DNA from: Escherichia coli
Lineage (GTDB): Bacteria > Pseudomonadota > Gammaproteobacteria > Enterobacterales > Enterobacteriaceae
NCBI RefSeq assembly: GCF_050920415.1
Contig: NZ_CP169309.1
Direction: 5' to 3' (one strand)
DNA: 64,000 bases
The position numbers and the translations under genes were made by a program. Within the stretch, counting starts at the first letter, position 1, and each line of letters begins with the position of its first letter. This document shows positions 38,587 to 42,545 of the stretch, one piece after another. The notes below the pieces were generated by a model. The model ran no database searches, was not told the DNA's origin, and saw only the letters and a list, made by a program, of their open reading frames with translations.

Positions 38587-38659
38587 GTACCACTGGCAAA
38601 AAAACAGGCGCGCAGTTTAGCATAAACGCTCCGGCGCAGGCACGCCGGAGCAGTGGGCA

Positions 38660-41293
38660 TTATTTGGGAAGCGCTGTTCCCCATTCACGCCACTCTTTCG
38701 GTTCACTTTCCTGCAACAGGAAGTGCTTGCCTTCCTGGGCTTTCGGTGCCAGCGGCGTACCCGGAGGCGTAGCGAAGGCGATGCCGCCACGGATAAACTG
38801 GTTAAAGGTGCCGGTTTTCACGACGCCGCCCGTCAGACCAAAGTCCAGACTGTAACCCGATGCCAACCAGAAGACGGAATTGTTACGCACCAGGTGTTGA
38901 TAGCGTTTACTGATGCGCATCGCAATCATCACGCGATCTGACAATGTCCCCAGCGTCATTCCGGTAACCGTACCGACTTCCAGACCACGGAACAGCACAG
39001 GCGTACCGATGCCTAACGAACCGGCTTCCGGCGCTTCAACAATAATGCTTAAGCCATCCAGGTAACGCGAATCAGTTATGGTGGCCTCTTGTAATTCAAA
39101 GTCGCGGCGAGGATTGCCCCGGCCTGGTTCGACGTTGATATACGGCTGGAGGATAGTATCAAGATGCTCAACGCCAGCTGCCGAAATTTGCGGTGTGACC
39201 ACTGAGAAGCGTGTACCACCGCGTGCAAAGGTCTGGACATATTCCGGATAGAGTACCGCCTTTGCCTGTACTTCATTGCGCGCGGTAATCAGATCCAGCG
39301 TCTGGATTTGCCCGATATCAATACCGAGATAGCGAATTGGCATCCCGACCGCCAGTTTTCCGGCATCGAAAGCGTGAAGCGTAATTTGCCCGCCAACCGC
39401 ACGGGCCGCTGTTTCGGAAGCATACAGAATACGCTTGTCGCCTTTACGCTGACTGGCGCTGGCACCGCTGAGGTTATCGAAGCTAATAGCTCCCTTTAAT
39501 GCTCTGGAGAGCGGGGATGCCTGTACAGTCAGACCACTACCATTTAGCTGAACTTTCGCCCCACCTTCTGCCCAGAACACGCTGTTGCTGGTCAGAAGGT
39601 TGCGATACTCCGGCTTAATATGCAGATCGATATCAAACGCGTTAGCTCGCGGACGCACAGTAATAACTTCACCAACTTCAAATTTACGGTACAGTACTAC
39701 CGATCCTGCCTGCACATCTGGCAATGTCTCTGCACTCAAACTCACGGTTGTGGTGGGCAAATCGCTAAGGCTGTTCTCCAGTGCTTTTTCCAGATTGGCA
39801 TACAGTGGATAGCTGGCTTTCATCTCGCCTTTATCGCCTGGCAGAATACGTATCCCGCCGTTAATCCATTCTGAGGCGCTGGCACCGAGAAATTCAACGC
39901 CATCCAGCCCCACCTTCACGTCGACACGGCTGTTGACGACAAATTTGCTATCGCCTTTTACCAGTTCGCGATGCTGAGGCTCGATGGCGACGGTAAAGGT
40001 GACGCCTTTGCTGGTGAGTTTACGATCAATAACCTGGCCTACCTGCACGCCGTGAAGAATGAGCGGCTGACCAGCATCAATGCCGTAACTTTCTGGTGCT
40101 GTCAGGGTCAGCGTCAGAACATCTGGCTCATGGAGTAGGGCTTTTTCGCCAGGAACAACAATAAACTCTTTACGTGGCTCACCGTCGCCCGGCACCAACT
40201 CGAAGGTTTTGCCGGTCAGCAAGGCACTGAGATTAGCATCGCTAAGGGATAATTTTGGATTACGTAATTCGATGCGGGTATTTTCCCGTAACAGCGTGAC
40301 GACGCTGGGATCAACGGTCATTTCCCCAGTGACTTTACCACCAGGATTTAAATCCAGTTTAGTCAGCTGTCCGACTTCCAGCCCCTGATACATTAACGGC
40401 GTCGAGTCGGCGGTTAATCCGGCCCCACTCGGCAGTTCCAGTTTTATTATTACGCCACGCTGGCTGTGGGCGAGATCTTCATACAGACCAAAGGTATCTT
40501 CCGCCTCGGCAGGTTTCGACTCTTCAGGTGAATCGAAGGCAATCGCACCGTTAACCAGTGCCGCCAGACTTTCCAGTTTCACCTTCGCGCCACTGATACT
40601 GACGTTGGCATCAACGCCGGAAACGTTCCAGAAACGGCTACCTTTTTTCACCAGATCGGTAAAACGCCGCTCGATCAGGACATCAATCACCACGCCTTGC
40701 TTATTGGGATTGATGGCATAGTCGTAGACTTTACCCACCGGGATCTTACGGAAATATACCAATGAACCACTGTTCAGTGAACCGAGATCGGGGGCTTGCA
40801 GGTGGATCATCAGATCGCCATTATCCAGCCGATACTTCGGTTGGGTATCGAGTGCGACAAAGTGATCCTGCTCTTTACCTTTACCCGGCATCATGCCGAT
40901 ATAGTTACCCCCGACGAGGGCGTCCAGCCCGGAGACACCTGCCAACGAGGCTTTTGGCGTCACCAGCCAGAACTGTGTCTCCTCGCGCAGCGCATCTTTC
41001 ATATCGGACTTGATGCTGACTTTGACTTCAATCTTACGAAGATCGTCGCTCAGGCTGATATCCTGCACTGTTCCGACCTCAACGCCCTGATAACGAACAG
41101 GTGTGCGGCCCGGGACGATACCGTCCGCCGACATAAAGTCGATGGTGACGGTATTACCCCGATCCTGATAACTGTCCCAAATCAGCCAACCGGCAATCAT
41201 AAGCGCGATGAACGGCAGCAGCCAGAAAGGTGAGATACGGCGTTTATTTTTAATCTGCGCTTCAGTCGTCGAAGCGGGCGTTTCCTGACTCAT
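38660..41293 (-). CDS. letB: Multi-MCE-domain lipid transport protein LetB (YebT)
   Basis: 877 aa from [39 protein letters not shown]; N-terminal TM helix followed by repeated MCE domains. Confidence 0.93.
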
Positions 41294-42545
41294 GTGCATC
41301 CCAAAGTAAGCGGCTGTCCAGCCATTCCACAGCAAGAATAGTCAAAATTACCGCTGCGCCGAAATAAAACGCAGCCGGTCCCATAGTAAAAGCGAGGATC
41401 TGATCGCGATTAATTAGCGACATGGTTAAAGATATGACAAACAGGTCGAGCATCGACCAGCGACCGATCCAGGTCACCATCCGCAGTAACAGAATCCGTG
41501 TGCGTAAACCTTGCTGGCATTTAAAATGAATGCTCAACAGTAAAGTGAACATGACGATCACTTTGGTAAATGGCACCAGAATACTGGCGATAAACACGAT
41601 TCCGGCGACCGCAATGTTGCTACTTGCCAGCGACATAATCCCGGAAAGAATCGTATCTTCCTGCCGGCCACCATTCAGATAAATGATAGAAATAGGTAAC
41701 AGGTTGGCAGGTAACAACAACACGATTGATGCTAACAGCGCCGCCCAGCACTTTTGCAGACTATGACGGCGACGCAGGCGTAGCGGGATATGGCAACGCG
41801 GGCAGCGACCACGCTGATCGGGATAGCCGGTAAAATGGCATCCCAGGCAGACACGAAGTTTCTCGTCCCTACGCGTAGCGGGGCGCTGTGGATAAAATCG
41901 CGCCCACAGTTCCTCGACATTAAGATGTGACAACGTCACCGTGGTCAATATCACTAATGCAACAAAAGAGAACAGACCAATACCCGCCTGAATGTGCGCA
42001 TAATCCTGCACCTTTATAGAAGCAACGCCAATACCGACCAGATAGATGTCCAGCATCACCCACTCTTTCAATCGCTCAAGCATCAGCAGTACCGGGCGTA
42101 GATTCATTCCCAGTCGGTTACCAAACCATAAATAAGCTATGGAGGTCACCAGAATAAGGGGGGCACCAATAACGCAAAAAAAGACCATCGCCCCCGTTAT
42201 TGCATCGCCCTGTTTGGTCATTTGCCAGATGCCTTGCATGACATTGGCGTCAATACGAATACCTAACAGCCAGATATGCAACAGCGGTTCGCCCCAGGCA
42301 AACGGCATCAGCAACAGCATGGTGAATGCCATTGCTGCCAGGCGCGTTAGCGACCAGTCGCGCCCGTCACGAATTTTTGCCTGACAGCGCGGACAATAGG
42401 CACTTTGATGAGAGTTTATCTCGGGTAGGCTAAACAGCATGTCACATTGCGGGCAACGTTGGTAATCACCACGCGGCAGTTCCTCGCCAATTGCCCTCAC
42501 TGTTATCTTTTTTGTCGGCGTAATTTGTGGTGTGTTAAGAGCCAT
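41262..42545 (-). CDS. letA: Inner membrane protein LetA (YebS), PqiA family
   Basis: 427 aa with zinc-ribbon-like CxxC pairs and multiple TM helices; its 3' end overlaps the letB start. Confidence 0.9.

What the first reader, a model, noticed from the sequence alone, without database searches (positions are those of the whole stretch)
41262..41293. 32-nt overlap between the letA 3' end and the letB start
The letB start codon (41293, MSQETPAS...) lies inside the last codons of letA, implying tight translational coupling of this two-gene lipid-transport module. The listed longer ORF, starting 14 codons upstream, is probably not the real start.
Basis: partly seen in the sequence, partly recalled or inferred. 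Interest (0 to 1): 0.15.

Follow-up and report, generated by a model that had tools for sequence, protein, structure and literature searches.

The report
Known 32-nt letA–letB gene overlap
The last 32 bases of the E. coli lipid-transport gene letA really do overlap the start of letB, but this is already annotated and published, and the overlap does not by itself show that translation of the two genes is tightly linked.

Summary
The window is E. coli chromosome. On the minus strand letA (yebS, 42545..41262) ends with TGA at 41264-41262. RefSeq and K-12 MG1655 annotate the same overlap, and a 2026 Nature paper states "overlap by 32 bp" and shows that a refactored, non-overlapping operon works.

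ATG 41293 is present in 81/81 Enterobacteriaceae genomes. It sits at the same offset after LetA's last conserved motif in four distant orthologues, three of which have no alternative start.

- The upstream codon at 41335 is TTG, not ATG. It has no SD and is lost in 3 species.

The overlap encodes only LetA 418-427 and LetB 1-11. LetA 419-427 and LetB 1-13 are unresolved in the cryo-EM structure. Overlap length varies among orthologues (8-56 nt, or a gap) because the LetA tail simply runs on to the first stop.

"Tight translational coupling" is not implied:
- a -32 spacing couples poorly in reporter studies;
- the complex is 6 LetB : 1 LetA;
- the start region is not sequestered in RNA structure.

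Verdict: real, ordinary, already known.

The parts
41262..42545 (-). letA (yebS) coding sequence, 427 aa, stop TGA at 41264-41262
   Evidence: ORF list and translation. NCBIfam TIGR00155 PqiA/YebS family, 701.7 bits against a cut-off of 260. RefSeq annotation of the identical sequence.
38660..41293 (-). letB (yebT) coding sequence from ATG 41293, 877 aa, stop included
   Evidence: Translation. RefSeq and K-12 annotation. PDB 9n8w/9n8x LetB chain of 877 residues begins MSQETPAS.
41262..41293 (-). 32-nt out-of-phase overlap. It encodes LetA H418-D427 plus the stop, and LetB M1-E11 (the last codon only in part).
   Evidence: Near-zero variation at all three codon positions in 81 genomes. LetA 419-427 and LetB 1-13 are unresolved in cryo-EM.
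41291..41293 (-). letB start codon ATG (best-supported start)
   Evidence: ATG in 81/81 genomes. Same offset after LetA's ...RL[LI]W.. motif in distant orthologues L082, L084, L087 and L091. No upstream alternative exists in L082, L084 or L091.
41299..41305 (-). Invariant TTTGGGA at -12..-6. It contains a weak SD-like GGGA (41302-41299) built from LetA's conserved Trp415-Asp416 codons.
   Evidence: Invariant in 81/81. Anti-SD duplex is -4.0 kcal/mol, the best of the candidate starts but reached by about 20% of random positions.
41297..41299 (-). Alternative in-frame ATG (would give MHMSQ..., a 38-nt overlap); probably not the main start
   Evidence: ATG in only 62/81 genomes (17 ACG, 2 ATA), including loss in an E. 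coli-lineage genome, L002. The GGGA abuts it, leaving no spacer.
41333..41335 (-). TTG that opens the longest ORF (891 aa, a 74-nt overlap). It is preceded by an in-frame stop at 41344-41342. Not the real start.
   Evidence: The codon is TTG, not ATG. It is TTT in 3/81 genomes. It has no positioned SD (-3.0 kcal/mol, pairing far upstream). Frequent radical changes in this frame (L/Q, W/L/S, T/I, M/T). No equivalent start exists in L082, L084 or L091.
41262..41345 (-). Zone of suppressed synonymous variation in letA codons 401-427. Read as the letB translation-initiation region plus the dual-coding stretch.
   Evidence: Ten-codon windows of third-position entropy are 0.11-0.36 bits here, against 0.85-1.65 in windows lying within codons 1-390; the intermediate windows decline through 0.90, 0.77 and 0.59. 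A similar, shorter drop occurs at the proQ 3' end upstream of the prc start.

Best explanation
letB is translated from AUG 41293, which lies 29 nt upstream of the letA stop codon in the +1 phase. The product is the 877-residue LetB.

The letB start is fixed immediately after the codons for LetA's last conserved element (...LDSRLLWD). The Trp-Asp codons of that element supply a weak SD-like UGGGA. LetA's frame then runs on into letB until the first out-of-frame stop. This gives a short, disordered LetA tail whose length, and hence the overlap length, differs between lineages.

Shown here: the overlap, the conservation of the start, the dual-coding constraint, and the restriction of the overlap to segments that are unresolved in both proteins.

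Inferred: LetB initiation is mainly de novo, with 30S subunits binding a conserved and reasonably accessible initiation region inside letA. This allows more LetB than LetA, as the 6:1 complex requires. Ribosomes finishing letA contribute at most a modest coupling effect.
For: - Overlap and annotation.
- Published statement of the 32-bp overlap, and a working refactored operon.
- ATG 41293 is invariant in 81/81 genomes, while ATG 41299 is kept in 62/81 and TTG 41335 in 78/81.
- The homologous ATG is at the same offset in four distant orthologues (36-50% LetA identity). Three of them have no upstream start.
- Orthologue overlaps are 56, 38, 38, 11, 8 and 8 nt, plus one 25-nt gap, with non-homologous LetA tails.
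- Synonymous-site entropy collapses in letA codons 401-427.
- LetA A423P occurs in 24/81 genomes and is silent in LetB.
- LetA 419-427 and LetB 1-13 are unresolved in the structure.
- The complex has 6:1 stoichiometry.
- The literature reports poor coupling at large negative spacing.
- No strong local structure (z = -0.53). Opening energy is at the 24th percentile.
Against: - I could not retrieve any direct experimental mapping of the LetB N-terminus or initiation site. Supplement searches found nothing, and two papers were not held.
- The SD-like element is weak, which would fit dependence on coupling.
- Synonymous suppression extends about 50 nt upstream of the ATG. Taken alone, that is also what a TTG-74 start would produce, although the proQ-prc control shows a similar upstream zone.
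- Natural examples of coupling at -38 and -50 nt exist (phage fr and MS2), so coupling at -32 is not excluded.
- LetA and LetB synthesis rates were not obtained.
Confidence: 0.8

Rival explanations
1. Tight translational coupling. Ribosomes terminating at the letA stop move back 29 nt and reinitiate at the letB AUG, so LetB synthesis depends on letA translation.
For: - The genes are co-directional in one operon, with no promoter-like excess between them.
- The SD is weak.
- Phage fr (-38 nt) and MS2 (-50 nt) coat-lysis pairs are coupled at comparable negative spacing.
- Overlaps are frequent among orthologues.
Against: - Coupling is best at -4..+3 nt. It falls faster with larger overlap and was absent at -25 nt in a systematic series.
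- A 6 LetB: 1 LetA complex cannot be supplied by one-for-one reinitiation.
- A non-overlapping refactored operon served as the functional wild-type parent.
- One orthologue has a 25-nt gap, and the paralogue pair pqiA-pqiB has a 4-nt gap.
- No sequestering structure is predicted.
Confidence: 0.2
2. LetB starts at TTG 41335, giving an 891-residue protein and a 74-nt overlap.
For: - It is the longest ORF.
- TTG is kept in 78/81 genomes.
- letA synonymous variation is already suppressed around and upstream of this codon.
Against: - It is TTT in 3 species.
- No start exists upstream of the homologous ATG in L082, L084 or L091, and L082 and L091 have an in-frame stop within 1-4 codons of it.
- No positioned SD.
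- Four of the 14 extension codons show frequent radical changes.
- The upstream conservation is matched by the proQ-prc control.
- A plasmid refactored as two non-overlapping reading frames was the wild-type parent of the mutational scan, and the deposited LetB chain is 877 residues beginning MSQETPAS. I did not check which start the refactored plasmid uses.
Confidence: 0.03
3. LetB starts, wholly or partly, at ATG 41299 (879 residues, MHMSQ...). E. coli would then make this form alone or two N-terminal forms.
For: - It is an ATG in frame only 6 nt upstream.
- It is present in 62/81 genomes.
- Its region is slightly more accessible (11.6th percentile).
Against: - It is lost in 19/81 species through the letA-synonymous GAT>GAC change or through ATA, including an E. 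coli-lineage genome.
- The GGGA abuts the codon, leaving no spacer.
- No equivalent codon is seen at this position in the distant orthologues.
Confidence: 0.07

Closest known systems
E. coli K-12 letA-letB (yebS-yebT, b1833-b1834) as annotated and as described in Nature 2026 (PMC13017536)
   Same: It is the same locus. The region tested was 95-100% identical in 5424 of 5426 complete E. coli genomes. The annotation shows the same 32-nt overlap. The paper states the 32-bp overlap explicitly.
   Different: Nothing material. This window is another E. coli strain.
Canonical translationally coupled pairs with -4/-1 nt spacing (ATGA, TGATG), for example trpE-trpD, or pqiB-pqiC in the paralogous operon
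   Same: Co-directional operon neighbours that encode subunits of one complex, with the stop and start close together.
   Different: The spacing here is -32 nt, outside the -4..+3 window where coupling is efficient. pqiB-pqiC has the classic 4-nt overlap and pqiA-pqiB a 4-nt gap.
Phage fr and MS2 coat-lysis gene pairs (-38 and -50 nt spacing)
   Same: The downstream start is embedded tens of nucleotides inside the 3' end of the upstream gene, in another frame, with a weak initiation signal.
   Different: In the phages the downstream start is silent without coat translation, and in MS2 it is held in RNA structure. Here no sequestering structure is predicted, and the downstream product is needed in six-fold excess.

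Membership tests
PqiA/YebS (LetA) transporter subunit family, TIGR00155 | Full-length match above the curated cut-off | tested here: met
   701.7 bits against a cut-off of 260.35, covering residues 16-417.
LetB (YebT), seven-MCE-domain tunnel protein | Sequence identity to the structurally characterised protein, and an N-terminus matching the deposited chain | tested here: met
   Residues 1-60 match the PDB 9n8w/9n8x chain (877 aa) with one substitution. The alignment starts at MSQETPAS. RefSeq names it yebT/letB.
Genuine dual-coding same-strand gene overlap | Both reading frames are conserved and synonymous variation is suppressed in the shared stretch | tested here: met
   letA third-position entropy is about 0-0.2 bits in the overlap against a mean of 1.19 elsewhere. 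LetB MSQETPAS is nearly invariant. Changes at LetA 426 and LetB 9 co-occur as the shared bases predict.
Termination-reinitiation coupled gene pair | Stop-start spacing within about -4 to +3 nt | tested here: not met
   The spacing is -32 nt. The criterion is taken from the review PMC12548453.
Termination-reinitiation coupled gene pair | Downstream translation depends on translation of the upstream gene | not testable with these tools
   This needs reporter fusions with letA translation blocked. The only indirect data are the 6:1 stoichiometry and the working refactored operon.
RNA-unfolding coupled pair (MS2 coat-lysis type) | The downstream ribosome-binding site is sequestered in stable secondary structure that upstream translation opens | tested here: not met
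   MFE z-score is -0.53 against shuffles. Opening energy of -18..+6 is 6.5 kcal/mol, the 24th percentile of the transcript. The small hairpin at 41324-41311 is absent in L084 and L087.

The most novel reading that the evidence does not exclude
The roughly 85-nt invariant zone at the letA 3' end (41345-41262) may be more than an ordinary ribosome-binding region. It could be a tuned element that sets the 6:1 LetB:LetA synthesis ratio from inside the upstream gene. In E. coli and the 61 other genomes sampled that keep ATG 41299, LetB might also be made as two N-terminal forms (MSQ... and MHMSQ...).
Probability: 0.1. Interest if true: 0.3.

Novelty: already known. Interest (0 to 1): 0.08.

Why it matters
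It matters little beyond correct annotation. The overlap is annotated in RefSeq and stated in the LetAB structure paper, whose authors removed it for their mutational scan.

The check has three practical uses:
- It confirms the 877-residue LetB start.
- It flags that mutations in letA codons 418-427 also change LetB residues 1-11, and that letA-synonymous changes upstream may alter letB initiation.
- It warns against reading a long overlap as evidence of tight coupling, especially for a 1:6 complex.

Tried and rejected
1. Experimental start-site or abundance data for yebT/yebS. Supplement searches of the retapamulin, TRAINSPOTTER, Salmonella proteoform, TetRP, ribosome-signature, Saito 2020 and Mori 2021 papers found nothing or held no files. 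Li 2014, Schmidt 2016 and Nakayama 2017 were not held.

2. A conserved RNA structure explaining the upstream conservation.
- The fold is not better than shuffles, and there is no Rfam match.
- The 8-bp hairpin at 41375-41353 is broken by non-compensated changes in the Enterobacter group.
- The 5-bp hairpin at 41324-41311 is invariant in Enterobacteriaceae and L082 but absent in L084 and L087.
- A possible long-range pairing, TTTTGACT (41347-41340) with AGTCAGGA (41290-41283), has no counterpart in L082. This rests on manual inspection of the sequence.

3. An internal sigma-70 promoter using TTGACT at 41345-41340. No usable -10 element follows it, and the promoter scan found fewer sites than shuffles gave.

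4. A third-frame mini-[14 protein letters not shown] (41325-41290), whose TGA overlaps the letB ATG as ATGA. It carries an internal stop in 19 of 76 distinct junction sequences, so it is not conserved.

5. The idea that upstream synonymous suppression proves a TTG start. The proQ-prc control shows the same kind of zone upstream of an ordinary start.

Full report
**Identity of the locus.** An 801-base stretch around the finding is 100% identical to E. coli strain MFDS1022581. It matches 5424 of 5426 complete E. coli genomes at 95% identity or more. The genes under the match are yebS and yebT, now called letA and letB. They sit in the usual prc-proQ-msrC / letA-letB-rsmF neighbourhood. LetA scores 701.7 bits against the PqiA/YebS family model, whose cut-off is 260. 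The first 60 residues of LetB match the 877-residue chain of the LetAB cryo-EM entries 9n8w/9n8x.

**The observation.** All coordinates below are on the minus strand.
- letA runs 42545..41262 and ends with TGA at 41264-41262.
- The sequence ...TGG GAT GCA CAT GAG TCA GGA AAC GCC CGC TTC GAC GAC TGA contains the letB ATG at 41293-41291, in the +1 phase (cAT Gag).
- The shared stretch is 41262-41293, which is 32 nt.
- RefSeq annotates exactly this overlap in the identical strain and in K-12 MG1655, where letA ends at 1917541 and letB starts at 1917510.
- The coordinates and arithmetic in the finding are correct.

The finding needs two corrections.
- The longest ORF in the letB frame begins with TTG at 41335, not ATG. 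An in-frame TGA lies just upstream at 41344-41342.
- A third candidate was missed: ATG at 41299, giving MHMSQ... and a 38-nt overlap.

**Which start is real: close relatives.** I fetched the locus from 80 other Enterobacteriaceae species with 76-98% LetA identity.
- The ATG at the 41293 position is present in 81 of 81 sequences.
- The 41299 position is ATG in only 62. It is ACG in 17 and ATA in 2, one of the latter being an E. coli-lineage genome.
- The 41335 position is TTG in 78 and TTT in 3.
- The overlap is 32 nt in 77 sequences. It is 44 nt in 4, where the TGA has become GGA and LetA gains four residues.
- In the 14 codons between TTG and ATG, the letB-frame residues change often and radically (L/Q, W/L/S, T/I, M/T/I). 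These changes come from substitutions that are silent in letA.

**Which start is real: distant orthologues.** More distant orthologues (36-50% LetA identity) mostly keep the prc-proQ-letA-letB(-rsmF) order.
- In L082, L084, L087 and L091 the letB ATG lies at the same place as in E. coli: W-x-x-(xAT|G), directly after LetA's ...RL[LI]W motif.
- In L082, L084 and L091 no other start codon exists upstream in that frame. In L082 and L091 an in-frame stop lies 1-4 codons before the ATG.
- The best anti-SD pairing among the candidates belongs to ATG 41293: GGGA at -9..-6, -4.0 kcal/mol. It is weak, because about 20% of random positions do as well.
The real start is 41293, and neither 41335 nor 41299 is the main start.

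**What the overlap is.** The LetA tails after the conserved motif are unrelated in sequence and vary in length among orthologues. Examples are ...[13 protein letters not shown], ...WDSYEETETGRATDGAAQNQT*, ...WKIYDRQQQNAVHSG*, ...WDHYGQ* and ...WMKNERQRRQEPGHP*. The resulting overlaps are 32, 56, 38, 11 and 38 nt.
- Two further orthologues place the ATG later and overlap by 8 nt. One has a 25-nt gap.
- The paralogous E. coli pair pqiA-pqiB has a 4-nt gap, and pqiB-pqiC has the classic 4-nt overlap.
- The LetAB structure paper reports LetA residues 419-427 and LetB residues 1-13 as missing from the density. These are essentially the residues the overlap encodes.
- In 24 of 81 genomes LetA has Pro instead of Ala at position 423. 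That change is silent in LetB.

My reading is that the letB start is fixed just after LetA's last structured element. That element's Trp-Asp codons provide the invariant UUUGGGA. LetA's frame then runs on to the first stop that happens to occur.

**Constraint on the DNA.** In letA codons 1-400 the third-position entropy averages 1.19 bits, and no degenerate site is invariant. Ten-codon windows lying within codons 1-390 range from 0.85 to 1.65 bits; from there they decline through 0.90, 0.77 and 0.59. For codons 401-427 they fall to 0.36, 0.28, 0.14 and 0.11.
- The suppression therefore starts about 50 nt upstream of the letB ATG, not at the overlap boundary.
- I checked whether this points to the TTG start or to a special RNA element. 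The region does not fold better than shuffled sequence (z = -0.53). It has no Rfam match. The local hairpins are either broken or not conserved at distance.
- A control junction in the same genomes, proQ to prc, shows a similar drop in the last ~9 codons of proQ, upstream of an ordinary start.
- I therefore read the upstream zone as an ordinary translation-initiation region embedded in letA. The overlap proper carries initiation-region constraint plus dual coding.

**Translational coupling.**
- The 2025 review by Brown and Wade (PMC12548453) reports that coupling is most efficient at -4 to +3 nt.
- The same review says that increasing overlap lowers efficiency more than increasing separation, and that one systematic series saw none at -25 nt.
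- It also reports exceptions: the phage fr (-38) and MS2 (-50) coat-lysis pairs.
- The complex contains six LetB per LetA, so reinitiation by terminating letA ribosomes alone could not supply enough LetB.
- A plasmid with the two genes refactored as non-overlapping reading frames was the wild-type parent of the functional mutational scan.
- The region -18..+6 around the ATG has an opening energy at the 24th percentile of the transcript, so it is not masked.
- The most likely mechanism is independent initiation at a conserved, accessible site with a weak SD. Upstream translation may give some help. This last step is inference, and I could not retrieve any start-site profiling, N-terminomics or synthesis-rate data for these genes.

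**Novelty.** The feature is already known. [quoted passage not shown] The comparative detail added here is minor: a fixed start, a variable LetA tail, and an overlap confined to unresolved termini. Interest is low.

Noticed in passing
window 41290-41325 (-): A third-frame 11-codon mini-ORF ([11 protein letters not shown]) ends with a TGA that overlaps the letB ATG in the classic ATGA arrangement. It carries an internal stop in 19 of 76 distinct junction sequences from other species, so it is probably fortuitous.
   Followed up: yes
window 38627-38652 (-): A G+C-rich 11-pair hairpin lies directly after the letB stop (38660), before rsmF. It is terminator-like but has a poor T-run (TTTATGCT). 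It could attenuate read-through into rsmF.
   Followed up: no
window 41353-41375 (-), inside letA: A terminator-like 8-pair hairpin, GCTGCG...CGCAGC followed by GGTAATTTTG, lies within the letA coding sequence. In the Enterobacter group the stem is disrupted by uncompensated substitutions, so it is unlikely to be functional.
   Followed up: partly
L012, L029, L031, L062 (Citrobacter spp. and Superficieibacter electus), letA stop: The letA stop TGA has changed to GGA. LetA gains four residues (…GSAD*/…GSAN*) and the overlap grows to 44 nt, without changing the LetB N-terminus beyond residue 11.
   Followed up: partly
L088 (E. coli K-12 1012001-1015459): The paralogous pqiABC operon uses different junctions: a 4-nt gap between pqiA and pqiB, and a 4-nt ATGA-type overlap between pqiB and pqiC. 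The long overlap is therefore specific to the letAB lineage.
   Followed up: partly
window 41311-41324 (-): A small hairpin, UGGCU-GGAC-AGCCG, lies 18-31 nt upstream of the letB ATG. Its stem is invariant and only the loop varies across 81 Enterobacteriaceae. It is identical in the 50%-identity orthologue L082 but absent in L084 and L087. It may be part of the letB initiation region.
   Followed up: partly
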